A stretch of DNA of 20,000 bases, taken from Vermamoeba vermiformis (taxonomy: Eukaryota). A model generated the notes under the pieces. That model had not been told where the DNA came from and did not search any database. It saw nothing but the letters and a program-made list of their open reading frames with translations. A program made the position numbers and the translations under genes. The DNA is taken from the NCBI GenBank assembly GCA_045837725.1, contig JBEWZL010000103.1:49265-69264 (forward strand). Reading direction: 5' to 3'. Below, in pieces: positions 2,990 to 17,500 of this stretch (its first letter is position 1; each line of letters opens with the position of its first letter).

Positions 2990-3188
2990 TATACTCGTAA
3001 GAATAGCAGATATTATAACGTTACAATGTAGTATTGCACAAATGAACTTTTTTTTGTGGTTGTCAGCGACAATAGTGTAAAAAATTGCTTTTCGTTTGTA
3101 CAACCTTCTAGAAACCACAATAGCATGTTAATATAGTTACAATAGTGTATATATTTTATCTATTCCTTGTATAATCACAAAGCAAATC
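2990..3188. promoter_or_regulatory. Short bidirectional promoter between CRYZL1 and the WD40 gene
   Basis: 199 bp separate the divergent ATGs at 2989 (-) and 3189 (+). ACAATAG occurs three times (3069, 3117, 3139), twice as ACAATAGTGTA. Confidence 0.55.
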
Positions 3189-5791
3189 ATGCAACGAGAT
3201 TCGAGGCAATCTGACCCGAATTACTTGCAACTGCTTGGTAGTCGAGAAATTCAGCCAAAGAGCGACAATTCATTCAAGAAGCAATTAAATAACGAACATA
3301 TTAAGCACCTTGCAATCGAAAAAGTATTTCAAACGGATACGCATCGAGGGTGCATTTTTGGAATAAAATTTTCTCCCGACGGAAAGTATTTAGCCGCTGC
3401 TACTAGTAAGTATTAACTAAAATATATTTCATATTTTTGTATTTTCATATTTAAAGAATTATTCTCTAATTGTCTATTTCGAAATAAAGCGGATTCGGTC
3501 GAGATTTGGGATCACGCCATAGGCAAAAAGACATTGGTATTGCTAGATCATAAAGAGATCGTGACGTCAATAGTATGGATGAAGCACGATCCTCAGTGCT
3601 TTTACACCGCATCTCTTGACAAAACCATAAAATTCTACCGGGACTTTACACCAGTTGCCACATTGACCGATCATGCAGGTATGATAGCCCATATAAATAA
3701 TATACATATTATCATGTACACATATACTTTTAATCGGAATTCTGAATTAGTAAAGCGAGATCTAAATCTTTACTAATTTACATCCGCTTACCTTTAACGT
3801 AAAATTATAAAAATTATAATATTTCTCGTGCCAAACACGTGCTTATATTTGTATAGATTGGATTCGATGTCTTGCAGCAAATCCGTCAGACTCAACAGTC
3901 ATTTCTGGATGTGTTTCATCGCGCATTTATGGATGGGACACGGAGACTAACAAATCGAAATTCAAGATTATGAATGCACATTTTTCGGCAGTAAGTATCA
4001 AAATATATAGTTGTGGTAGCAAATAGAGAGCCCTTGAATACCTCAAAGCGGATACGATCTTTATTTTGACTAGAATTCTTTCGACAGGCACCCTAATCCT
4101 ATAACTAATCGTATTCTTGCTAATTTTTGATATTCTAGAAATACACAGACCTCAATACAATCAATAGTTTAAATTACTCAACGAATAACGATGCCATTTT
4201 TATCTCGGGTGCTCGCGATGGATCCGTTCGCTTCTGGGACAGGTACGCAACGTCTTATATTTATCTATCGTATGATTTTACATATTTACTGCGTTTGTTG
4301 ATCCTACACGAGATATTCATAGTTCGTGTACTGGCAATTATTTTGCGAAGAAATTCTTCGGAGAATAATTTGTGGAACGAATTTACGTGCTGGTAGTCTA
4401 ATTTTGAGTCTTTATATAGTCGAGCGTTATATGGCGATCAGCCAGTATTCGAATTAGCTGCTCATGAAGCCAAACTCAACAACTGCATGTTTTCTCAAAA
4501 TGATTTATACGTAAGCTTTACTCAATTTAATCGATAATTAATTCCGAGAAATAGCTAATTAATATATTATTAGTTGCTTACCGCAGGAAGGGATAGTAAA
4601 TGTCGATTATGGGACCTGAGGATGTTTACTTCAAATACCTCGCTAAATTCAGTCAGGTACGTTTTAGTTAATAACAACATCCGGCTTACATTAATTAAAT
4701 TCATATAATTAGTGCTAAGGCTGCGATGGAATATACTGGACATAGCTGCGCTGGATACAATGTTGGCGGAGCATTTTTTAATTTTGATAAGAATATTGTT
4801 AGTGGTACGTACAGGCATTTGTTCGAAAAAATACAAATATTAAATATAAATTCGTTGTTAGGATCGGAAGATAAGAAGATTTATATTTACGATACTCAGA
4901 GCGGAGAATTAGTTAAAGAATTGGAGAACCCGCATTTTACTCAAACAGTTATACATTGCGTGCAACCTGTAAATAGCACCGAATTATCATTAGTTAGTGC
5001 CTCGATAGACAACGTAAGTTCTAGTCTCTTCTATAATTTCTCTCGAATTTTTTTGGATCCGAATCCGTTTGTAACGAGTTCTATTTTTAGAACAGGATCT
5101 CGTTTTGGAGTCCCGTAAAAGACAAAGAAAAGAGCATTCCGCTGTATTATTCAAAAGAAAACAAGAAACCAGGAGTCCTCAACGGTCCTAATAATAACAA
5201 CAATAATAACAACAGCGGAGGTGGATCTGCCAACGGCCAAGCTGATTCTGATGAGGAAGATGAAGCTGTGTTCCAAGAATATGCACGAAATGAACGACCG
5301 TTATTAGAGGGATTTATGCGAATCAACGGCGATCAAATATTGCGCGTGTTTCATCGGTACAATTTTACGCTGTCGAGTAACTTGGACTGGGCCAGATTAT
5401 TCGAGGCTGTGCGAAGAGATCCTTACCCTGAAGCCGTGGATTTAGTACGTTGATATCCTATATTAATACGATATGCATAGTACTTTACTGGATGCGATAC
5501 TGAAGCACATCCAAAAAATCAAATCAATTTTTGAATGTGAAGCACCTAATAATACGTTATGCTTACTAGTATTAATGAAATTTCCTTATTTAGATAACGA
5601 AATTAGCCCACGAGTTTGCGCAATCTTTCACCCGCATAAATGAAAACGCCGGAACAAATACAAACGCCATGGATGGTGAATTCAGTGGCGAAGAATATGT
5701 TGAAGACGGTGATTATGAGGGTGAAGAGGACGAAGATAGTGATGACGAAGAGGTCGATCTGGAACAACAACCTGGATGCCGGCAGAGTTGA
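3189..5791 (+). CDS. WD40-repeat protein, DCAF/DWD-like (DCAF8/WDTC1-like architecture), with acidic tail and C-terminal CaaX (CRQS)
   Basis: Multi-exon gene. WD repeats include HRGCIFGIKFSPDG, HKEIVTSIVW..TASLDKTIKFY, SGARDGSVRFWDSR, TAGRDSKCRLWDLR and YTGH..IVSGSEDKKIYIYD, with two WDxR motifs. The last exon (5594-5791) encodes ...EEDEDSDDEEVDLEQQPGCRQS*. Confidence 0.85.
5190..5213 (+). repeat. (AAT/AAC)8 poly-Asn coding microsatellite in the WD40 gene
   Basis: aat aat aac aac aat aat aac aac is in frame. A shorter poly-Asn run lies in the TLP gene near 10200-10214. Confidence 0.8.
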
Positions 5792-6177
5792 TGTATCTGC
5801 AACGAACAAAACAACATGTAAAATAGCAAGTAAGTAAATACTCAATTTTGCGGGCCGAAAGGTAATTAATTAATTTAAGGTATCGAATATTGATAAATTT
5901 TGCGGTCACAAAAACGTGACCCGCTCAGAAAAAACTCGTTTTTAATAATTTTAGCGCCCAAATTAATGAAGCAAGCATAATTATAATATTATAAATATAT
6001 TATGCATAAAATATGTATACGCTGCATTCGGAAACAACTTCGGATTTACAAATCCAGCAGGTTGGATCTAAATGTGAACCGAGATATTTTAACTACGGGA
6101 CCCAGTCCCAAAATTTGTTTAAATTCACGTAGCGATCCTTTGAAGAATGTCTTTTATTTAGCTTTGTTTATCGCAAG

Positions 6178-8012
6178 ATGCAACAACTCGTAACATTGGT
6201 TCTTTGCTTCTTTGTGGCTTTTTCAACAGCCGCGCCAAAGGAGATCCGTCCAACGGATGCAGACTGGAGATCAGTACTCTTAAACCTTCAAGCAGGCGAT
6301 GTCGTAACTGTTCATGAAGGCACGTACACGCTTGAAGGAAAGTTCGCGGCTACTTGGACTGGAACTGAAACGAATCCGATCGTCGTTCAAGCAGCTTCAG
6401 GTGAAGGACGTCCAGTGTTCAAACAAACAACTCAAGAAAATATTTGGAACCTCAACGGTGCTTATTTTGCGGTGAAGGGCATTGAATTTACAGGCGGAGG
6501 TCGTGGAGTCCGTTTGGGCGAAACTTCAGGTAAGTTTTGAATCAGAATCAAAAATAATCTGTATTATTAGGAAAATAATTTTATTAATTATCTAATGAAT
6601 TATGGCAGATACTTCGCACGTTGTGTTCGACAGCATTTACATCCACGATATTGGTGCCAACGCTTTCAGCGCCAACGACGGCGGTAGAACCTACGAGAAC
6701 ATTACTTTGAGATACAGCGAGTTCAGTGGCACAAGTACGTAAAAAGCAACAAGAATTAATCGTGATTCGCCCTCGAGCGGAGTTTGGATGGAGAACTTTG
6801 ACTGACTAATGAAATTTCAGAGCTTAGCGGTGAATGCGTCTATATGGGCTGTTCAGCCGATGGTTGCAGAACGTTCAATTCTATTGTTGAGTTCAACTAC
6901 TGCCACGATACAACGACTGATGGCTCAGGCTCAGGCGCATCCGGCTTCCAAATCAAGACCGGATCTCACAACAACATCGTCCGCCATAACGTCTGCAAGA
7001 ATATTCCTGGTGTTTGTGTGCTTCTCTACGACGACTATGATCGCGGAGTCAATCTCATTGAAGGCAACGTTGCTTTGGGAACTCAAAGCGACAACGGCAT
7101 TCAAGTGACTGCTGGTGCTATTGTTAGAAATAATCTTGTTATTGGTTGGGGCCCTAGTAAGCATAATTCAATTCTTTTTTCTTGATCAGTTTTCTTGGAT
7201 GCACATCCAAGTTTCTGATTTTGTTTTTGATCGTTTCTAATCCCCTTAAATAGAGGCCGCTGGAATTTACATCTCTGTCAACTCAGTTACGACTAATCCT
7301 CGTAACATCGTTATGATCCATAACACGGTCTATAGCACCAACAGCGCGGCCAGATGCTTGAATGTTGAAAGCAGTACGACCAACTCCGTGATCTCAAACA
7401 ACGTTTTCTATTGCCCTGGTACCGCTGCGATTAACGGAGGCCCATTCAACAGTAAGTTGTAGTACTCACATCTTTCCGATGAAATTTCGAAGAACTGATC
7501 CAATTTCGAAGGTGTTACCGTTACAAATAACGGTTACTTGGGATCTGTGCCTACCATCCCCAGCTCAAACTTCTTATTATCCTCAACTGTTGCTCAAGTC
7601 TTTGCTAATGCAGCCAACAACAACCTTTATCCTGCTGTCGCATCCGCACTTATTAAAGCTGGTGACGCATCTCACTCGACTGAAACAGATTTCAACGGCT
7701 TGCCTCGTAACAACCCTCCCACTGTCGGTGCATACGTAAGTATATCACTCTTATCTGAAGAATACTAAGACTAACTCAATGTAGGAATTCACGATGGATA
7801 CCAACCCTGGCTGGCAAGTCCAAGGAGGCTTCAAACAACTCGCCAATGGTGCTGCGCCACTCTCCGATACTATTACTCCTTCTGCTACGCCATCAGGCTC
7901 ATCTAACGGTCCTTCAGCTTCTAACAGCCCTAGCGCGCGCACTTCTGGCGCTACAACTTTCGGTTCGTTATTGTTATCCTATCTTATTGTTATTTTGGTA
8001 ATCTCATGCTAA
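6178..8012 (+). CDS. Secreted right-handed parallel beta-helix (pectin-lyase-like) protein, probably GPI-anchored
   Basis: Signal peptide MQQLVTLVLCFFVAFSTA, then LQAGDVVTVHEGTY and GTETNPIVVQAASGE.RP. Asn-ladder repeats (FNYCHDT, NNIVRHNV, NLIEGNV, IVRNNLV, IHNTV, ISNNVF) follow, then DFNGLPR..PTVGAYEF, a Ser/Pro/Thr linker and a hydrophobic tail SGATTFGSLLLSYLIVILVISC*. Six exons with canonical donors. Confidence 0.85.
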
Positions 8013-8321
8013 TGCCAATATATTAGGTCTTGGTTCATTGGCTGTAGTTGCCCTCCTGGCATTCTGCTAATTCGATCAAATAAACCTTGTCACGTGTTAC
8101 TCTTTTGTTGACCGGTGGTTGCTTTGTTGTTATTTTAATAGTAGTTATTAATAAACTGGAATTGTACGCTACCTTAACAAAGAGAGACTTGAATATCAAA
8201 AGCCCTTGTTGCGCCAAACCTTAGTACCAAAAAAGGATCGCTAAATTTATTTCATTTATTTTTTCTCGCCAACCAAAAGCAACTAATGTTAATACGTTTC
8301 TATATTAGTAACGCATAGGCC

Positions 8322-10758
8322 ATGAGTTCTAAGTAAGTTTCAGACGTAAACAAGCTCTGGAGGCTGACAGAATTATTAATTCAGATCGAATGGAAGTCCG
8401 AAAGGAGCGGACAATGTCATCCGCCAAATGGAGCAAAAAATGAAGGAATATGAATCCGAATTTAAATTCATTTTAGGTACGTCAGAGAAATTGATCTGGA
8501 TCCGAGAAATCTTGACATAGATATTTTAGAAAAATTATTCATCGCATGATTATGATACTATATCCATATATAAACGTTATAGAGCGGTTTTTTGACGTCT
8601 ATAAATTATTTTGAATTTAGATTTTAATTTTCTATTTTCAGATCCAAAACCTTTCATCGCCAGATTGGATGGCAACCGATTCTCGAACTTTATGAAAGGC
8701 TTTCGTAAACCCAACGACTATAGAGGTACCAATAAACGCTTATTAACATCTTTATTTGCTTCTAACGCTAGTTTTCAGTGGATACCGCAATGATTTTGAC
8801 TGCTCAAGACGCCATCATTAGATTTCATTGCGTTTCAGCTTATGTTCAAACCGACGAGATATCTTTAGTAAGCCTTACGTACCATAATGATTCAATTTGG
8901 CTAACCACCAATTTTCTCGATCAGATCTTTCAGAAAAATGAAAACAATAAAGAGCGAGTTTTGCGCTTAGTCTCGATGATATCGGGCTATTGCAGCGTTA
9001 GGTAAGTCATATCGAGAGTTATTTAAGATTCTGGATTAAAGTCCTTTTTTCCAAAAATAGGTTCAACTTCCATTTAGCGAGGCAACAATTCGACAGCGCA
9101 ACTGAAAAAGACGTAAGATCATTTCATATAATATATAACGCTTATATGGTATATATATAATCTAATCATGTTAATAGCTCATCGAAAAAGTCAACAGCAA
9201 CGTCGCTTTTTTTGACTGCCGGATCTTCACTTTGCCGACCGAACTTGACGTTACAGTAAGTCTAACGATATAATAATATGCCACAATAGCTCATACTTGA
9301 CGCTAGCAAAACATTTTCTTGCGAGCTGCTTATGCCCGAAGAAACAGCAAGTCAGTTCTTGGTCGCGCAGTGCTCGGTCATCAAGCCATTCAAAATTTGC
9401 CCTCGGACCTTGTAAGTTTCTGCGACAACTTTAAAAACGGCAAAAACATTGAAATTTCCTTTTTTGGATGATTTTTAATTACGGAAGCTACTCAAAATAG
9501 AACGAGTGGATTTTTTTTTGAACTTTTCGGAATCCAAACCGAACTTGTTTTATTGACGCATATAATTAGATTGCAAAAAGGATCCGAGAAGAAGAAGATG
9601 TTAATTGGGCTGATTTTGCACCGTTCTTCAAGTACGGCGTGGTCCTCAAACGACAGAAAAAAGCGAACAACACGTGCGTGATTAGCTCCGGTCAATTTCT
9701 GCTGCTCAGCTCACAACTGTGCGGACAACGCGTGATGGACTTTGACAACAGAACGGACTACACGGAACAAGAAGTTGTCGCGACAGTTATGGGCCACGAC
9801 AGCAGCGATGTGCCTGTGGGCATGAGTCGATTGTTCACGACGATCAGCGACTTTGTGGCCTTGACTCAGAGTATTGAAGAGGTAAGCGTACTCACTCAAC
9901 TCTGTATGACACGTGTCAATTTGACGTCCTTAAGACATTTCTTCGTGGTACTTGTGAATGAAAGAAATTAACGGCCTTGCGGTCCACAGCAAATTTGTTT
10001 TCAGCGTTGCTGTCTGGCAGAAAATACACGTATAGTACTAACGTCCTTGGTTTAGAAAGTTGAATCCAAGTACGGCCATCACTTCAAAGAGATAGAGCCA
10101 GAGCCTTACGAAGCCAAGTTAAATCGCATCGATGAGTTCTTTGAAGGCATGGAACTCGAGCTCAAGAAAGATGTCAACATGAATTCCCCGCCACCAAAGA
10201 ACAATAATAACAATTCGAAGAATTCTTTAAGCCCTGTTGCGTTAAATTTTAATAGACCAGTGCCGATGCAATTAGAAAATACGCAAATGATCGTCGAAGA
10301 GAATAGTTTGAACGTTCTTGAATTGTGGCACGAAACTCCGAACGTCGTTCAAATCGCTCAAAATGAAATCTCCGAAGGTAATAGTCCGAAACAAGTCATC
10401 GATAAATGGATCAGTTCGATTGGCCAATCTTCTTCGCAAATAAGTAAGGAAATTTTATAGCATATCTTATGACATAAGTTATTAATAACTTTATTAGGGA
10501 TTGATACGGCAAGGTGGAACAATGGCGAAACAACTACGTTCATTACGAAGGTAAACGAAAAGAAATTTGATGTTGATAAGTATTTGCCTAATTAGGAAAT
10601 TTTCATAGGTCATTTTGCCAATTCGGCTGGACCCGTGTCTTGGCGTTAGTGGTGGTCTTGGGGAAAGTACGACGAGTGCCGATGAGTCTTTGCAGCTTGC
10701 GTATAAAGACGCTGTGGATCTGCTCCTAGAGCAAAATCTCATTCAAATAGTCCAGTAA
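8322..10758 (+). CDS. Thg1-like protein (TLP; tRNA-His guanylyltransferase family 3'-5' polymerase) with long C-terminal extension, 496 aa
   Basis: Twelve exons (8322-8332, 8385-8476, 8642-8725, 8779-8867, 8925-9001, 9061-9112, 9178-9255, 9307-9411, 9570-9881, 10056-10443, 10498-10550, 10609-10758; 1491 nt) give one open frame. Family motifs: MKEYE, ARLDGNRFS, FRKPND, AYVQTDEISL, FFDCR, ARRNS and NWADFAPFFKYG. Confidence 0.9.
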
Positions 10759-10946
10759 TAGTAGCTGGTCAACTATTGTACCTAGAAGTGTATTATAAGC
10801 CCTTGTACATTGTAAATTTTTGAATTTTTATTAAACAGACGAAATTTGTTGCTGGTCTAGCTTCATTAAAATGGAATTGGAATACAAGAAAAAATAATAG
10901 AGTTAGTATTTAATATAATGGTACATTCGTGGTACAAAGTTAGTTA

Positions 10947-12729
10947 TTATCCTTCGTTTGCCTCATGCTGCAACAATACACGGATCGAGTTTGAGAGTTC
11001 GTTCTCAAAATCGACATGAGCGCCTTTATACACGTCTTTGATTATGCCTTGCTTATTTAAGACGTATATCGTTGGATAAGAACGAACGTAGCACTTTGTA
11101 GCGAATTTTTTGGATCCGATCAGATTCGGATAATTCAATTTCATATTGTTTAGGACTATGATTGCATCGCTTTGCTTAGCATCTGTATTTACGCCATATA
11201 CTACCAATTTATCTTGCTGAATCTCGGTTTGAAACTGATTGACGATGGCTTTCATGCTCGGCATCATTTTTATGCAGTAAGAGCAATCTCGATGCCAAAA
11301 ATCTAGTATAACGACTTTACCTATAATTGTATTAATATAAATAATATTTGAATGCGGTATTAAAGTTAAAGGCTTACCAAGCAGGTCTGCTGAATTTACG
11401 ATTTTTTCTTTATCTTCAAAGCAGTGTAATTGCCATGGCGTTAATTCCATACCTTTCGTTTCTATTATTTCCGCGAAATCCCATTTCATATGATCAATAT
11501 TATCTTCGTGCATTTGAGTAAATCCGTCGAGAATTTCTTTGGTCAGATCCAAATCCAACTTCTTTTTTGTTGAAACTAATATATCTTTGGCCTTATCGAT
11601 CAAAGTCTGTACAATAGTGCTTATTTTATCCAATTTGTTGCAAAACACTTCGTATTCTAATGTTGCATCCAGACAAAGTTGAAATTCTTTCTCGATCGCT
11701 AAACAAGTTTGTTCATCAATCGTTGTTATATCGATAAGCTTGGTTAATGACTCTTTAGTAGATGGTACTGGATATCCTTCGCTAATTTGGCTTGATATTT
11801 CGACGGGCAAGCATTTCTTCAAGTCGAATCTGATCTTTTGCGAACAAGTTCGTAAGTGGATCCGATCTATTGGGCCTTCAAACTACAGATATATTAGAAT
11901 ATGTTTCATATATGCTATTTATCGGATTCTTACCCTCGATTCAAGCAATAAAATGTCTTGATCCGAACTTTTGAAAGTGTACACGAATTCTTTTTCCAAA
12001 AGAGTGTTTGTAACTTTCCATTCCGTTCTGTATATAATATGCCCTTATTAATACATCTTTATAGTCCTTAGAAGTCGCTTATTAATGATGCACTTACTCT
12101 AAAGTCGGATTCGTAGCCAAGGCTGAAAAAATTTCTTGTGGATCGAAGTCCGTACCCATTTTAGTGTTGTAAACTACTGCTCCATCATCTTTTAAGTAGA
12201 AATATCCGATCTTTTGTCGCGGCTTGGTTTGTTCAATCAACTGGCCATTAATTATTGAGAAAATTCGATTGATCCTGCATAGAACAATGAAAAATTAATA
12301 TTTGAATACATAGTATAATAGTATTATTTAAATATACATGTTCAATTATGCGCTGCTATAATGAATTGGTCAAGCTTGATTACCTTCTAAACCAAATTTT
12401 GACTCGATCAGTCTCCTTTTGCGTGATCCAAAACGAAATATCCGCGGTCCAAGCTGAGCTTTTATTGTTCTTATAATTAAGTCGGCCTAGGAACCAAATA
12501 AAAGTTAGTTTGCGTGTAAGGAGTTTCGCAATTTTCAATAAATAGATTCATTTGCTTTAACGCTTTCATAGCTATTTTTCATATAGCACAATGTAAATAA
12601 TAAAAGTAAAGATTATATTGTTGTGCGCAGCGTAATTTATAAGCGCTAAAGGTTTTTGAAAGTACCTTCTTCACGGTAGATCAATACAGTGCCAGGCTTC
12701 AGCGTGTATTTTACGTTTGATGTATTCAT
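10947..12729 (-). CDS. TlpA/ResA-like thioredoxin-fold (redoxin) protein with an uncharacterised N-terminal region of about 290 aa; 438 aa in total
   Basis: Exons 12729-12666, 12486-12384, 12274-12098, 12027-11934, 11882-11378 and 11320-10947 keep frame (1317 nt). The C-terminal domain has GKVVILDFWHRDCSYC (CxxC at 11285-11274), VYGVNTD and the cis-Pro loop VRSYPTIYVLNKQG. Confidence 0.85.
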
Positions 12730-13147: not shown

Positions 13148-16100
13148 ATGTCCAAAAAAGTCAATTTTAATAAGCTATTGGAACAATCCAAGCAGCTCAC
13201 GACTCAGTTCCAAGATCAAGGATTCCTCATCCAACGAAATATTGAACAGATCGATGAAGCTTCGAGGAATTTAGTTCAAAAAGTCAGCCAAGAAGAGAAA
13301 AAATCACACCCCAAAGCGTAAGTCCCCATTATGCTCGAAAAATTTAAATGTTGAAGATCGCGCGCATATTTTTTTCTGGTCTGTCTCCCTAATAATTCTT
13401 AATAAACAAATGTTTAATTTATGCTAATAATATCTAAATAATTATAGTAATTTTATTGAGGCTGAAGGATCAGATGAAAAAAAATATCAGCGTTACTAAC
13501 ATTATTTTATTACAGACAAATACTATTGGCCCGCCAAGGCTTTGATACTGAAAAATTAACTCAGAATTTGAGTTCTATCGATTTAAAAACAACTTTTGAA
13601 CCATTGGAATCGATCTCAGAGACCGATCTCGAAAGTTATTTGAAGCATGAACACGAATTGATTGTATTGAGCGCAATTGAAGAAGCTAAGAAAGAGGTAA
13701 TATTAATTATAACAAAAATATAATTATTGAATTTTTTCATTATTTTTAAAATTATTTTTTCGATCGGATCTCGATCTCCGTTACATGTCATTAGCGGCCA
13801 ACTAACACTCGTATAATTTGTGTATATAGACTATTGAACAATATAACTCGAATTTTATCTCACGTATGGAAGACGAATGGGAAGAGAAAAAGCGCGAAAT
13901 TATCGAAATGTTAACGCAGACTGGTCCTGCTTGGGAAGGCTTGCAAAAAACAAAAGAGAAGCCCAAAGGTATATAATATAGCGTATTATACTCTATAGTA
14001 CTATTACTTTCAATATAACTATGGTGCAAATTGATCTTTCGTCTCAATAATTTTTTTCTATCGTGCTGTAGTCGATAATTTTATCAATTTTATTAACGGA
14101 CTTTAATTTAGTAAATTTCCAAACCTCAATGGACATGAAAATGTTGCACTACGCCAAGGTTATTTGCGACTTGAACAACTTCAGACTGCAAAAGAAACCT
14201 TTCGGCCTTGCTACTCGATTGCTAGATGTCGCTAAAAATTTTGAAGATAAGAATATGGTGCGTATAATATACTACTCTCAATTGACTTAACGATTACAAT
14301 TTTGGATCTTGAGATCTTACAAACGCAGTCAATTTCTTTTAACTTTAATTGCAATTTCTGATTTGCTCGGTTTATTACGGATATTTTTTTATCAATTTTA
14401 TTAATTTGTTCGTTTTTTAGCAACGCAAGTTGGAGTTGATTGACTGTTTTGATCTGCTGCGAAAAATGATCGGCGAAGGAGGTGTTTTGCCTGACGGCAC
14501 TATTACGTAAGTATCACTTACCATAAAAGGAAATCATTACAACAAAAATCGAACTTTTAACCGGCATATCGATGCGTGAAAAAAGTTTGCAAAAATTCAT
14601 TTATTGACCATATTTGGCAATACAGACGATCGCCGAGCCGCAACGAGCGAGATTTCGAGCAAGACTTAAAAGTTAATCCGAGTGAAGTGAAAAGATATTT
14701 CTTGAAAGGCGCACGTGACTTTTTGGAAGAGCAGTACAACAACATCATTCAGACCATGACCAAGAACAATCTGCAAAAGGCACAGCTCGGAGGTCGTCCG
14801 ACAACGATTGCGTTCGTCAAGGGCTACTTGAACATATTGTTTAATATTCCTACACAGCCCTTCCCTGATGAATACGAGGTACTTGATCCCACATCCAAAA
14901 TTTTTTCACGGACATTTTTTTGAACAAATTGATCCCCGATATTAATAATATATGTTATAATAATACGTATATTACCGCTTATACTTTAACATTTAAGTAA
15001 TACCATTGCAAATATTTTTTGACCGTTCGCCTAACATTTATTTCCTAATTTAGAAATCACCTGACGGTTATCCCATGTGGGCAGTGATCTACTACTGCAT
15101 TCGATGCGGAGATTTGAACGCAGCTATTCAATACGCCGCGTCAGTACCAGTGCTCGCGAACTTTGTGACGTACATGAAATCGTACACGGACAATCGCGAC
15201 AGAAAATTGCCCGATCAGATTGCAGTGCAAATATTGCAAGAATACAGACAGTTGAGAAACGATCAAGATCCGTACAAATCGATCGTGTTCAATTTGCTCG
15301 GTCGTTGTGATGCCACCAAGTCGTACAACGCTATTAGACGATGGACGACTCAAGATTTTATGTGGTTCAAGGTACGTAATATAAGGAAAAAAGCATAAAA
15401 TAAGGACCCTTGCCATATAATATTTTTTTATCAAAGCCCAAATACCAAAATTATATTGCAAAACTTTCACGCGTCGCAAATATTTTTCCACCAAATTTGT
15501 ATTTTCTTCGTTCAGTGAACAAATTTTTTTCCGCTTCTTCTGAGCACTATGAAATTTATTCCTAAACAACGGTTGTATTTATATCGTCTAGAAATGTGCT
15601 AATCAATCCTCCTATTCACAGTTGAATATGATCACTTCAGTCGAAGAAGTAGCCCCCGCAGTCTCAGTGCTGTCACTGCCGCGCCTTCAATCGTTGTTGC
15701 GCGAGTACGGCCCTGCTCACTTCAACAAGGACGGACAACATCCGCTGTTGTACTTCCAGATCTTGTTGTTGACGCAGCAATTTGAAGTCGTAAGTACAAA
15801 AGACACTTGCCTTAAAAGGAAATAGGACCAGAATCTTTTCCGAACCCAAAAAATATTGATCTGACCGTTGAAATTTATTTTGGTTTCCAAATAAGGAAAT
15901 CTTGATACTTGATGGAGTAGTGCTAATTTGATGCTATTTTTAGGCCATTCAATACCTCGAAAGCACCGGTCAATTCTTCGTTGAAAATCTTCATTTCGCG
16001 CATTGCCTCTATTACTACGGAATTTTGCGACAGCCGCCAACAGTTGCATCGCCTTGTAAGTGAACATCGATAGAATTGCCAAATAAGGAAATTATGTCCT

Positions 16101-17500
16101 AACTTCCGTCATAGTGTTCGGTGAAAACAACAGATTGCCGTACTGCAATTTCATCAAGTTGTTGACGCAGTACGTGAAGAGTTTTATGGTCACTGATTCA
16201 CTTGCCGCACTGCACTATTTGTTCCTTATTCAAGACGAGGCAATCAGGTAAGTATTATGATTTACCAAAAATGGAAATTTCCTCTTTAGGACTTAAACTA
16301 TCCTGAGCTCAAAATTAACTTTTTTTCGTAGAAATCATGCTATTAAAGATCTCGTATTGACTACGGGAGATTTCGATACTTTGTTGGGCCGTACTCAGCC
16401 AGATGGATCTCGCGCTGAAGGTGATTTGGAGAAGTTTGTCAGCCGTGAACAATGGCAACATATTGTCGAATTGGCTGCAAATGACAGTGAAAACAACGGC
16501 AAATACGAAGAAGCGATTAAACTCTATGACTTGTCGCAGGTTCGTACAGACTGCATTTCCTTTTTTGGAAATTTTATAGCACGTGCTTTAACGTACCTGC
16601 CGGCTACTACCATTAATCCCTACATTCGGTCCTAATATCAATTATTATACAGCACTACGATAAGGTGATGTTGCTCATGAACAAGTGTTTGGGTCGCGTG
16701 TTGGTCTCCAGCGATGATTTGAGCAATTTGGGCAACACCACAGCTCTCGAACGCAGCAAATTGATCGAGCTTTCAAATGTCCTCGTCGAGAAGTACAAAC
16801 GTGAATTGGTATGTATATAATATGACTATCACTAAGACCGAAAATATTGGTACAAGATCCGGATCTGATCCGAAAAATTTTTTTCACAGGCGCGCCCAGA
16901 AATGATGAACAAGATTGACGAGCATAATATGATTACTTTTAAGCAACTCAAGGCTTTGTTAGCTTTCTTCGATTATTACAACAATGGAAGATACTACGAG
17001 GCCAGTGAGGTACGTACAACAAAATTTTATTTCCTAATTTAGTAAATTTGCTAATTTTAATATTTTCATGCCATAGTTGATCAAGTCATTGAATATTATT
17101 CCTTTCAATACGAAAGAATTGGAAGATAAGGTCAATAACTTTAAGACATTGAGCGAGTCCATCAGACGAAACTTTGCAGAAATTTTGCTCGCAACGATGA
17201 CTTGCCTATTTAAGATTTATACGAACGTCAAAGCTGAAGCCGCTGTTGATCCTAGCCGCGTTCAGGTAACAAAATATACCTTACTAAACATTCCTGAATA
17301 ATCACTCCAGTTAATTTTTATTAAGACTGCCAGTCTTGAAACTATGATATGGTTATATATTAATTTTAATGCTTTTATAGTTCTTGGAACGATTGAAAAC
17401 TGAAGCACGTGCGTTGATCATGTTTTCGGGCATGATCCAGTTCAGAATGCCCGGCGATACGCACTCAAAGTTGTTGCGCATGGAAGTTTATATGAATTAA
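13148..17500 (+). CDS. NUP93: Nucleoporin Nup93/Nic96
   Basis: Multi-exon gene. N-terminus FNKLLEQSKQL..IQRNIEQI..AQILLARQGFD..TTFEPLESISETDLESYLKHEHE; internal GARDFLEEQY, AQLGGRP, WAVIYYCIRCGD, DPYKSIVFNLLG, TTQDFMWFKL and YFQILLLTQQFE; C-terminus ALIMFSGMIQFRMPGDTHSKLLRMEVYMN*. All are characteristic of Nup93. Confidence 0.95.

What the first reader, a model, noticed from the sequence alone, without database searches (positions are those of the whole stretch)
8322..10758. Thg1-like 3'-5' polymerase fused to a C-terminal dsRBD-like domain: candidate new RNA 5'-repair/editing enzyme
Seen in sequence: the TLP core ends near NWADFAPFFKYG, but the spliced frame continues for about 270 aa through a linker and an Asn/Pro low-complexity spacer. 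It ends in about 85 aa (10380-10758): NSPKQVIDKWISSIGQSSSQIRIDTARWNNGETTTFITKVILPIRLDPCLGVSGGLGESTTSADESLQLAYKDAVDLLLEQNLI. This follows the alpha-beta-beta-beta-alpha dsRBD pattern (NPK..L.E / F...V.I / G.G.SKK.AEQ.AA..AL..L), although the KK helix-2 motif is replaced by TT. The N-terminus (MSSKSNGSPKGAD) does not look like a mitochondrial presequence. Established: Thg1/TLPs are about 250-300 aa, usually single-domain reverse polymerases. Amoebozoan TLPs edit mitochondrial tRNA 5' ends, and the cytosolic Dictyostelium TLP4 can repair other ncRNAs in vitro. Inference: this may be a cytosolic TLP whose extra domain recruits structured non-tRNA substrates or a protein partner. I do not know of a described TLP-dsRBD fusion.
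Basis: partly seen in the sequence, partly recalled or inferred. Interest (0 to 1): 0.8.

Follow-up and report, generated by a model that had tools for sequence, protein, structure and literature searches.

The report
Reverse RNA polymerase with unknown tail
A eukaryotic gene really does join a Thg1-like "backwards" RNA polymerase to a long conserved tail, but the tail end shows no measurable likeness to a double-stranded-RNA-binding domain and its fold and role remain unknown.

Summary
Window 8322-10758 (+) is one 12-exon gene with 11 GT-AG introns, encoding 496 aa. Three lines confirm the join of the polymerase core to the tail. Relatives have 491-aa ORFs on 1550-1753-nt contigs, too short to hold the introns. 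RNA reads from a 90-95% relative show the splice joints, including exon 9 to exon 10. A third, more distant orthologue (L113) keeps all 11 intron positions and both neighbouring genes.

Residues 18-229 are a Thg1-like protein (TLP) core with the catalytic carboxylates intact. The tail has four parts: an acidic segment (230-300), a charged linker (301-345), a variable low-complexity spacer (346-369) and an acidic 127-aa end module (370-496). The end module is under strong purifying selection (pN 0.17, pS 0.74).

The dsRBD reading is not supported:
- Pfam gave no dsrm hit.
- A profile of 31 dsRBDs scored negative.
- hhalign gave P 0.11-0.16, which shuffled controls reach.
- Both AlphaFold models of the module were low-confidence.

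The tail has no relatives outside a narrow clade among 1.84 billion representatives. I read it as a new variant of a known enzyme family, with the tail's function open.

The parts
8322..10758 (+). Whole gene: 12 exons, 11 GT-AG introns, 496 codons plus TAA
   Evidence: Gene model. End-to-end match to the orthologous transcript ORF P0001. Splice joints in RNA reads of a relative. All intron positions conserved in L113.
8322..9668 (+). TLP catalytic core, aa 1-229 (exons 1-8 and the first third of exon 9)
   Evidence: PF04446 scored 93.3 bits against a cut-off of 29.2 on orthologue P0001, residues 21-155. PDB 4kgk BtTLP matched at E 5.7e-13 over 21-225. An HMM of 79 bacterial TLPs scored 132.5 bits on the window model, residues 18-229. 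Foldseek matched 4kgm at E 9e-14, TM 0.72-0.75. dN/dS against L113 is 0.023.
8662..8673 (+). RLDG motif (R42, D44): first metal-binding aspartate
   Evidence: Aligned to BtTLP R28/D30 (roles from passages of PMC3701042). Invariant in 79 of 79 bacterial TLPs and kept here.
8847..8864 (+). QTDEIS motif (D88, E89): second and third carboxylates. The otherwise invariant Ser is Thr here.
   Evidence: Aligned to BtTLP D75/E76. D, E, I and Q are invariant in 79 of 79 bacterial TLPs and kept here; S is replaced by T87.
9669..9881 (+). aa 230-300: conserved acidic segment after the core (pI 4.2), no known family
   Evidence: Residues 226-265 are 100% and 266-345 are 86% identical to P0001. dN/dS is 0.135 against L113. 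Charge. AlphaFold pLDDT is below 50 from residue 239.
10056..10190 (+). aa 301-345: conserved charged linker (KVESKYGHHF...NRIDEFFEGMELELKKD)
   Evidence: dN/dS is 0.065. The weak, non-significant likeness to the bacterial TLP C-tail scored 1.8-2.7 bits, and 41 of 500 shuffles reached the P0001 score of 1.8 bits.
10191..10262 (+). aa 346-369: Asn/Pro/Ser low-complexity spacer, variable in length
   Evidence: The block 346-405, which holds this spacer, is 57% identical to P0001 and has indels. dN/dS is 0.42, and exon 10 is 388 nt here against 355 nt in L113.
10263..10755 (+). aa 370-496: conserved acidic C-terminal module, split by introns 10 (10444-10497) and 11 (10551-10608).
   Evidence: pN is 0.168 against pS 0.744, and 85 of 127 residues are identical to L113. 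pI is 4.3-4.7 and net charge -7 to -10 in three orthologues. No family, PDB or atlas match. The only relatives are in a narrow clade.

Best explanation
This is one expressed, selectively maintained gene of a eukaryote with short, fungus-like introns. It encodes a Thg1-like protein (TLP), a templated 3'-5' nucleotidyltransferase of the kind that rebuilds RNA 5' ends, followed by a lineage-specific tail of about 265 aa.

Shown here:
- the 12-exon structure;
- that core and tail lie on one mRNA in relatives;
- the TLP fold, with residues matching BtTLP E12, R28, D30, K43, D75, E76 and R131 kept, and K99 replaced by Arg;
- purifying selection on the end module;
- the tail's restriction to a narrow clade.

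Inferred:
- The enzyme is active and adds Watson-Crick nucleotides to 5'-truncated, structured RNA, as characterised TLPs do.
- It acts outside mitochondria. The N-terminal lead is short, conserved and carries an acidic residue, which does not suggest a presequence.
- The acidic 127-aa end module is tethered by a flexible low-complexity spacer. It does not clamp dsRNA. It works as an adaptor or regulatory module, binding either a protein partner or the basic (pI 9.5) RNA-binding core itself, and so controls which substrates reach the active site.

The module's fold is undetermined.
For: Gene and join:
- Gene model with 11 GT-AG introns.
- Four 491-aa ORFs on 1550-1753-nt contigs that align end to end with the model.
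- RNA reads of a relative spanning introns 1, 2, 3, 6, 7, 8 and 9.
- The L113 orthologue with 11 of 11 intron positions kept and synteny on both sides.

TLP identity:
- PF04446 at 93.3 bits, with no Thg1C family reported at E<=10.
- 4kgk at E 5.7e-13, against human Thg1 at 9.9e-5.
- Bacterial TLP HMM at 132.5 bits.
- 20 of the 24 columns invariant in 79 bacterial TLPs are kept.
- Foldseek gave 32 matches at E<=0.001; the 20 of them that are listed are all Thg1 or TLP chains.
- Residue roles come from passages of PMC3701042.

Tail under selection:
- C-module pN 0.168 against pS 0.744.
- dN/dS 0.135 for 230-300 and 0.065 for 301-345.
- Spacer relaxed at 0.42.

Tail is lineage-specific:
- The exhaustive phmmer search over 1.84 billion representatives gave 7 hits.
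- Six are exon fragments of close relatives (53-92% identity).
- One is a repeat-driven bacterial surface protein.

Charge: core pI 9.5 and net +9 or +10; C-module pI 4.3-4.7 and net -7 to -10, in all three orthologues.
Against: - No activity, localisation or binding was tested.
- Three of the 24 invariant TLP columns are changed (S to T87, K to R106, D to Y170), and a fourth, an Arg in the bacterial C-tail, has no aligned counterpart.
- The last 60 positions of the bacterial TLP profile are not matched. Substrate handling, or even activity, could therefore differ.
- The adaptor or regulator role of the module rests only on charge, tethering and conservation.
- AlphaFold could not model the module (mean pLDDT 42; mostly below 50). 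A divergent RNA-binding fold is therefore not excluded.
- The window's own strain has no RNA evidence. All transcript evidence comes from relatives 74-97% identical at the protein level.
- No genome is held. I could not check for a canonical Thg1, other TLPs, or mismatched mitochondrial tRNA acceptor stems.
Confidence: 0.55

Rival explanations
1. One reading: the last ~85 aa are a degenerate dsRBD fold (alpha-beta-beta-beta-alpha) that brings structured RNA, either non-tRNA substrates or the tRNA body, to the TLP active site.
For: Two AlphaFold runs predict, in order, helix 406-416, strand 425-433, strand 436-444, a Gly-rich loop and helix 466-490 in P0001 numbering. That is 4 of the 5 dsRBD elements in the right order. 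hhalign's best register puts GGLGES...A..A..LL on the G.G.SKK.AE..AA..AL of the dsRBD profile. There is a precedent of a tRNA enzyme with a dsRBD: human Dus2 (PMC4627097, search listing and abstract only).
Against: - No Pfam dsrm hit.
- -0.8 to -2.0 bits against an HMM of 31 dsRBDs with filters off.
- hhalign probability 0.4-0.5% and P 0.11-0.16; 5 of 30 column shuffles reach the score.
- Neither AlphaFold run predicts a third strand.
- The position of the basic KK motif reads TTSADE, AISADE or TTSEEE in the three orthologues.
- pI is 4.6-5.2, against a median of 8.2 for the 31 dsRBDs.
- The conserved module is 127 aa, not 85.
- Foldseek on the low-confidence model listed 0 dsRBDs among the 47 rows shown, down to rank 50. 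This has little weight.
Confidence: 0.18
2. It is the 3'-5' polymerase of mitochondrial tRNA 5'-editing, as DdiTLP3 is in Dictyostelium. The activity is also known from chytrid fungi. On this reading the tail docks it to the editing nuclease or to mitochondrial RNA-processing machinery.
For: TLPs carry out this step in Dictyostelium, and mitochondrial tRNA 5' editing occurs in some early-diverging fungi (passages of PMC4284800; PMC5041481). The intron style here looks fungal.
Against: The lead ahead of the core is only about 15 aa and holds an Asp. It is nearly identical in three orthologues (MSSKSNGSPKGADN / MSSTSNGSPKGSDN), unlike typical presequences (general knowledge, recalled). The organism and its mitogenome are unknown to me, so editing could not be checked.
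Confidence: 0.17
3. The core has drifted into a non-catalytic or altered-function RNA-binding protein. The conserved tail carries the real function and the TLP fold serves only as an RNA 5'-end or tRNA docking module.
For: The otherwise invariant Asp of the R..DA.[KR]NS motif is Tyr in all three orthologues. The invariant Lys that contacts the incoming NTP (BtTLP K99) is Arg. The conserved bacterial C-tail is missing. Only 32 of 68 columns conserved at 85% or more are kept.
Against: All three carboxylates are kept, as are the residues matching BtTLP E12, R28, K43 and R131. K to R keeps the charge. The core is under very strong purifying selection (dN/dS 0.023).
Confidence: 0.1

Closest known systems
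Bacterial Thg1-like proteins, e.g. Bacillus thuringiensis TLP (PDB 4KGK/4KGM)
   Same: Best sequence and fold match: E 5.7e-13 over residues 21-225, and Foldseek E 9e-14 with TM 0.72-0.75. The metal-binding D/D/E and the NTP-contacting Arg and Lys residues are kept. There is no Thg1C or HINNLYN-type region (the motif name is recalled).
   Different: Identity is only 20-31%. This protein lacks the conserved last ~60 residues of bacterial TLPs. It has D to Y170, K to R106 and S to T87. It carries about 265 extra residues, including a conserved 127-aa acidic module with no counterpart.
Dictyostelium discoideum TLPs, especially cytosolic DdiTLP4 (PMC5041481, abstract and passages read)
   Same: A eukaryotic nuclear-encoded TLP. 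It is probably non-mitochondrial, and DdiTLP4 shows that TLPs can act on non-tRNA RNAs such as 5S rRNA in vitro.
   Different: No sequence comparison with Dictyostelium TLPs was possible here, because none was returned by my searches. No extra C-terminal module is mentioned for them in the passages I read.
dsRBD-carrying tRNA and RNA enzymes (RNase III; human Dus2 with an extended dsRBD, PMC4627097, listing and abstract only)
   Same: The architecture is an RNA enzyme followed by a small C-terminal alpha/beta module. The order of predicted helices and strands is compatible.
   Different: There is no measurable sequence or profile similarity to dsRBDs. The module is acidic rather than neutral or basic and lacks the basic motif at the start of the last helix.
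Phage TLP fused to an acyl carrier protein domain
   Same: Another case where a TLP core carries an added C-terminal domain of unexplained role.
   Different: It is a phage protein, the added domain belongs to a known family, and it is unrelated to this tail. I did not check that note.

Membership tests
Thg1/TLP superfamily (Pfam PF04446) | Profile match above the curated cut-off | tested here: met
   P0001, the orthologue that is 97% identical in the core, scored 93.3 bits against a cut-off of 29.2 over residues 21-155. The window's single exons gave 25.4 and 13.8 bits, below the cut-off because they are short. The bacterial TLP HMM scored 132.5 bits on the spliced window model.
Thg1/TLP superfamily | Three conserved carboxylates (BtTLP D30, D75, E76) for two-metal catalysis | tested here: met
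   D44, D88 and E89 are aligned and conserved. Their roles come from PMC3701042 passages.
Thg1/TLP superfamily | Palm-like Thg1 fold | tested here: met
   The AlphaFold core 10-238 has pLDDT around 90. Foldseek gave 32 matches at E<=0.001; the 20 of them that are listed are all Thg1 or TLP chains, best 4kgm_C at 9.3e-14.
TLP clade (as opposed to bona fide eukaryotic Thg1) | Closer to bacterial and archaeal TLPs than to Thg1, with no Thg1-specific C-terminal region | tested here: met
   4kgk (TLP) matched at E 5.7e-13, against human and yeast-type Thg1 at 9e-5. Only PF04446 was reported at E<=10, not the Thg1 C-terminal family. The nearest database proteins are 26-31% identical and resemble Planctomycetota and Myxococcota TLPs.
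TLP clade | Templated 3'-5' nucleotide addition or 5'-end repair activity | not testable with these tools
   Needs an enzyme assay.
TLP clade | Full set of invariant residues of bacterial TLPs | tested here: inconclusive
   20 of 24 invariant columns are kept. S to T87, K to R106 and D to Y170 are changed, and one Arg of the C-tail is unaligned.
dsRBD (Pfam PF00035, dsrm) | Sequence or profile similarity to the family | tested here: not met
   No dsrm hit at E<=10 or at E<=1 on the exons. -0.8 to -2.0 bits against an HMM of 31 dsRBDs. hhalign P 0.11-0.16, a score reached by 5 of 30 shuffles.
dsRBD | alpha1-beta1-beta2-beta3-alpha2 fold | tested here: inconclusive
   AlphaFold gave helix-strand-strand-loop-helix, but with mean pLDDT 42 and mostly below 50 in the full-length run. 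No third strand was predicted. Foldseek on that model found nothing at E<=0.001 and no dsRBD among the 47 rows shown, down to rank 50.
dsRBD | Basic RNA-contacting motif at the N-terminus of helix 2 (KKxAK-like; motif recalled, and seen as SKK.AE in the 31 collected domains) | tested here: not met
   The aligned position reads STTSADES, SAISADES or STTSEEES in the three orthologues. Segment pI is 4.6-5.2, against a median of 8.2 for the dsRBDs.

The most novel reading that the evidence does not exclude
The conserved acidic 127-aa C-terminal module is a previously unseen domain that retargets or gates a 3'-5' RNA polymerase. It might work as a tethered nucleic-acid mimic that occupies the basic tRNA-binding surface until a partner or substrate displaces it. 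Alternatively, it might be an adaptor that delivers the enzyme to a non-tRNA RNA or an RNA-processing complex. Either way, it would give a handle on the unknown cellular roles of eukaryotic TLPs.
Probability: 0.25. Interest if true: 0.7.

Novelty: new variant of a known kind. Interest (0 to 1): 0.45.

Why it matters
What TLPs do in cells is still largely open. The review PMC6471195 and the Dictyostelium study PMC5041481 (passages read) say that biological substrates are unidentified for most TLPs, and that the essential role of the cytosolic DdiTLP4 is unknown.

A eukaryotic TLP that has kept an extra module under strong purifying selection offers a concrete experimental handle. Finding what the module binds may show what the enzyme acts on. 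It also shows that the TLP core can take on add-on domains in eukaryotes, as this scan has noted for phages.

The value is limited for three reasons. The tail occurs only in a narrow clade, its fold could not be predicted, and nothing functional was tested.

Tried and rejected
- RNA in the window's own strain. No RNA holder was listed. The three same-label runs turned out to be a 90-95% relative, and no read was laid on 10234-11000.
- ESM Atlas on the C-module: no usable hit.
- Word-based homologue searches. The tail as region 226-491 found only P0001. Whole P0001 in the 270-860 aa band found only five distant TLPs of 271-303 aa carrying PF04446 alone. That search depends on shared words with this protein, so it is not a survey of TLP architectures.
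- P0014. This 1534-aa bacterial repeat protein (DUF11 and related families) matched residues 195-253 of the typed tail query (P0001 226-491), i.e. P0001 420-478, in 8 stretches at 29% identity. I reject it as inflated by its repeats.
- Possible homology of 301-345 to the bacterial TLP C-tail. MAFFT placed it there, and the motif NRIDEFFEG resembles NRveVlFEG. It scored 1.8-2.7 bits and 41 of 500 shuffles reached the P0001 score of 1.8 bits, so it is not significant.
- AlphaFold of the C-module with a 6-row alignment: pLDDT 42, not usable. Foldseek on it gave only weak ubiquitin-like rows at E>=0.09, which I treat as meaningless.
- Complex prediction (core against C-module): not folded by the tool, so no verdict.
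- A first full-length alignment (A3) was misaligned and discarded. A1 had a misplaced exon-11 row and was replaced by A2.
- Whole-genome questions (a second Thg1 gene, mitochondrial tRNAs) could not be asked because no genome is held.
- Paper searches found no TLP-dsRBD fusion.
- A homologue search with the core alone was not run. This leaves open which eukaryotic TLPs are closest.
Full report
**What is in the sequence**

The window is eukaryotic DNA (31-44% G+C in 1-kb windows) with short GT-AG introns. No genome is held for it.

From 8322 to 10758 on the + strand I reconstructed a 12-exon gene. Its exons are 8322-8332, 8385-8476, 8642-8725, 8779-8867, 8925-9001, 9061-9112, 9178-9255, 9307-9411, 9570-9881, 10056-10443, 10498-10550 and 10609-10758. 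The 11 introns are 51-174 nt long and the product is 496 aa.

**Is core plus tail one gene?**

Yes, on four independent grounds.

- *Transcript ORFs in relatives.* A search with exon 9 found P0001, a 491-aa JGI protein named tRNA(His) 5'-end guanylyltransferase. Its 90% cluster has 8 members. Four are 491-aa ORFs on contigs of only 1550-1753 nt, and one is a 440-aa form. Three are 123-aa ORFs on contigs of up to 459 kb; these are read-throughs of genomic exon 9 with the same acceptor and donor. A 1476-nt ORF on a contig of about 1.6 kb leaves no room for the ~950 nt of introns, so these contigs are spliced transcripts.
- *Alignment.* My model aligns with P0001 from Met1 to the last residue.
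- *RNA reads.* Three runs carry the same species label. No read was 99% or more identical to the window and most were 90-95%, so they come from a diverged relative. They show joints or loose ends that fit introns 1, 2, 3, 6, 7, 8 and 9. Eight reads in X3 carry the end of exon 9 directly onto position 10056. Nothing was laid beyond 10233 at the 90% threshold.
- *A third orthologue.* The metagenome contig L113 holds a more distant orthologue of 484 aa (390 of 496 aligned positions identical). All 11 intron positions are conserved and 10 of 12 exon lengths are identical. The same upstream gene and the same convergent downstream thioredoxin-like gene flank it. The downstream gene here ends at about 10950 on the minus strand, so exons 10-12 cannot belong to it.

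**The enzyme part**

- *Pfam.* It reports only PF04446 (Thg1): 93.3 bits on P0001, and sub-threshold on the window's short exons.
- *Sequence matches.* The best solved relative is the Bacillus thuringiensis Thg1-like protein 4kgk, at E 5.7e-13 over residues 21-225. Human Thg1 is far weaker, at 9.9e-5. The nearest database proteins outside the clade are 26-31% identical. Their relatives are bacterial TLPs of Planctomycetota, Myxococcota and others: 312 relatives, of which 80 loci were kept.
- *Profile.* An HMM of 79 of these TLPs scores 132.5 bits on the window protein. It covers residues 18-229 and HMM positions 3-210 of 270.
- *Invariant residues.* Of 24 columns invariant in all 79, 20 are kept. 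The changes are S to T87, K to R106 and D to Y170, and one Arg of the bacterial C-tail has no aligned counterpart.
- *Residue roles.* I mapped these on BtTLP using the alignment and passages of PMC3701042. The two metal-binding aspartates and the third carboxylate (D30, D75, E76) are D44, D88 and E89 here. E12, R28, K43 and R131 are E27, R42, K57 and R150. K99, which contacts the alpha-phosphate of the incoming NTP from the neighbouring subunit, is Arg106.
- *Fold.* AlphaFold with a 52-row alignment models residues 10-238 at a pLDDT of about 90. Foldseek gave 32 matches at E<=0.001; the 20 of them that are listed are all Thg1 or TLP chains.

So this is a TLP with an apparently competent active site, but without the conserved C-terminal ~60 residues of its bacterial relatives.

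**The tail**

After residue 229 there are four parts.

| Residues | Description | dN/dS vs L113 |
|---|---|---|
| 230-300 | Acidic segment, pI 4.2 | 0.135 |
| 301-345 | Charged linker | 0.065 |
| 346-369 | Asn/Pro/Ser spacer, varies in length between species | 0.42 |
| 370-496 | 127-aa end module | about 0.05 (pN 0.168, pS 0.744) |

- *Selection.* In the end module 85 of 127 residues are identical to L113. Synonymous sites are saturated, so the ratio of about 0.05 is approximate, but the contrast is clear. The core itself is at 0.023.
- *Charge.* It is acidic in all three orthologues (pI 4.3-4.7, net -7 to -10), while the core is basic (pI 9.5, net +9 or +10).

**Is the end a dsRBD?**

I tested this in every way the tools allowed, and no test supports it.

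- *Family and structure databases.* Pfam gave no dsrm match at E<=10 (exons at E<=1). The PDB sequence search matched the tail only once, to a fumarase at E 0.21, a chance-level score.
- *Exhaustive search.* phmmer with residues 226-491 of P0001 against 1.84 billion representatives returned 7 proteins. Six are exon fragments of close relatives. One is a bacterial repeat protein whose score comes from 8 repeats. No dsRBD protein appeared.
- *Custom dsRBD profile.* I collected 31 bona fide dsRBDs from E. coli RNase III and from 28 bacterial genomes. With all filters off, their HMM scores -0.8 to -2.0 bits on the C-terminal pieces.
- *Profile-profile comparison.* hhalign gives probability 0.4-0.5%, P 0.11-0.16 and a score of about 11. 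Five of 30 column-shuffled controls reach that score. The resemblance is therefore real as a pattern but not above chance.
- *Basic motif and charge.* The position of the basic motif is TTSADE, AISADE or TTSEEE. The segment's pI of 4.6-5.2 lies at the acidic edge of the 31 dsRBDs, which have a median of 8.2, with 1 of 31 below 5.2.
- *Structure prediction.* Both AlphaFold runs gave helix, strand, strand, long loop, helix, which is compatible with a dsRBD lacking a predicted third strand. Confidence was too low to use: mean pLDDT 42, and 63-70 only for residues 400-430 in the full-length run.
- *Other searches.* Foldseek on the poor model found nothing at E<=0.001, and the ESM Atlas gave nothing.

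The fold is therefore open. I put a dsRBD-like fold at roughly one in five.

**How it most likely works**

*Shown.* It is an expressed, conserved fusion of a TLP core to a lineage-specific tail.

*From family knowledge.* All TLPs characterised so far except DdiTLP2 add Watson-Crick nucleotides 3'-5' to 5'-truncated RNAs (abstracts and passages of PMC6471195, PMC5041481 and PMC12632743).

*Inferred.*
- The enzyme is active.
- It is probably not mitochondrial. The lead before the core is only about 15 aa, contains Asp, and is nearly identical in three orthologues.
- The acidic end module, held on a flexible spacer, acts as an adaptor or gate rather than as a dsRNA clamp.

The rivals are a degenerate dsRBD that recruits RNA, a mitochondrial tRNA 5'-editing polymerase, and a drifted non-catalytic docking protein. 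Each is listed with the result that would refute it.

**Comparison and novelty**

[quoted passage not shown] Every defining feature I could test was met. The exceptions are four deviations at otherwise invariant positions: three substitutions and one Arg of the missing bacterial C-tail.

The tail belongs to no family I could detect and occurs only in a narrow clade, with at least four distinguishable lineages at 53-92% identity. Automatic annotation already names the orthologue a tRNA(His) guanylyltransferase, so the gene itself is not new.

I found no paper describing a TLP with such a tail or with a dsRBD (full-text library only, supplements closed). Earlier notes of this scan report phage TLPs fused to an acyl carrier protein (not checked by me), so add-on domains on TLP cores are not unique.

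My verdict is a new variant of a known kind, of moderate interest.

**Limits**

- All transcript evidence comes from relatives.
- The organism is unknown to me, and its other Thg1-family genes and its mitochondrial tRNAs could not be examined.
- The complex prediction was not run by the tool.
- One planned homologue search with the core alone was not carried out, so the nearest eukaryotic TLPs remain unidentified.

Noticed in passing
window 9307-9411 (exon 8; codon 170): The Asp of the R..DA.[KR]NS motif is invariant in 79 of 79 bacterial TLPs. It is Tyr (LRAAYARRNS) in the window, P0001 and L113. The passages I read do not describe the role of this Asp.
   Followed up: partly
window 10056-10190: The motif NRIDEFFEGMEL resembles the NRveVlFEGaeP motif near the end of bacterial TLPs. 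MAFFT aligned the bacterial tails here, which would make 230-300 an insertion. The HMM score is not significant (1.8-2.7 bits; 41 of 500 shuffles reach the P0001 score of 1.8 bits).
   Followed up: yes
window 8100-11000 (RNA runs X1-X3): RNA-seq runs filed under the same species label match this locus at only 90-99% identity, mostly 90-95%. The label therefore seems to cover clearly diverged lineages.
   Followed up: no
window 10950-11882 (-): A convergent single-exon ORF of 311 aa has a C-terminal thioredoxin-like/AhpC-TSA domain (CSYC motif) and an N-terminal ~180 aa with no family hit. It is conserved downstream of the orthologue in L113 (80% aa identity in the best segment).
   Followed up: partly
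window ~6170-8070 (+): The upstream gene appears to encode a secreted protein. It has a signal-peptide-like start, weak Chondroitinase B and right-handed beta-helix hits below Pfam cut-offs, and a Ser/Thr/Pro-rich region ending in a hydrophobic tail that may be a GPI-anchor signal.
   Followed up: no
window 14561-16635 (+): Several exons of a Nup93/Nic96 nucleoporin gene (PF04097, up to 100 bits).
   Followed up: no
window 3132-5453 (+): A multi-exon WD40-repeat gene whose product includes a run of about 10 Asn followed by an acidic stretch.
   Followed up: no
P0014 (database protein, not in the window): A 1534-aa bacterial surface-type repeat protein (DUF11, DUF7619) scored E 9.7e-13 against the tail, purely through 8 repeats of a T/G-rich beta-hairpin-like motif. 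It is an example of repeat-inflated phmmer significance.
   Followed up: partly
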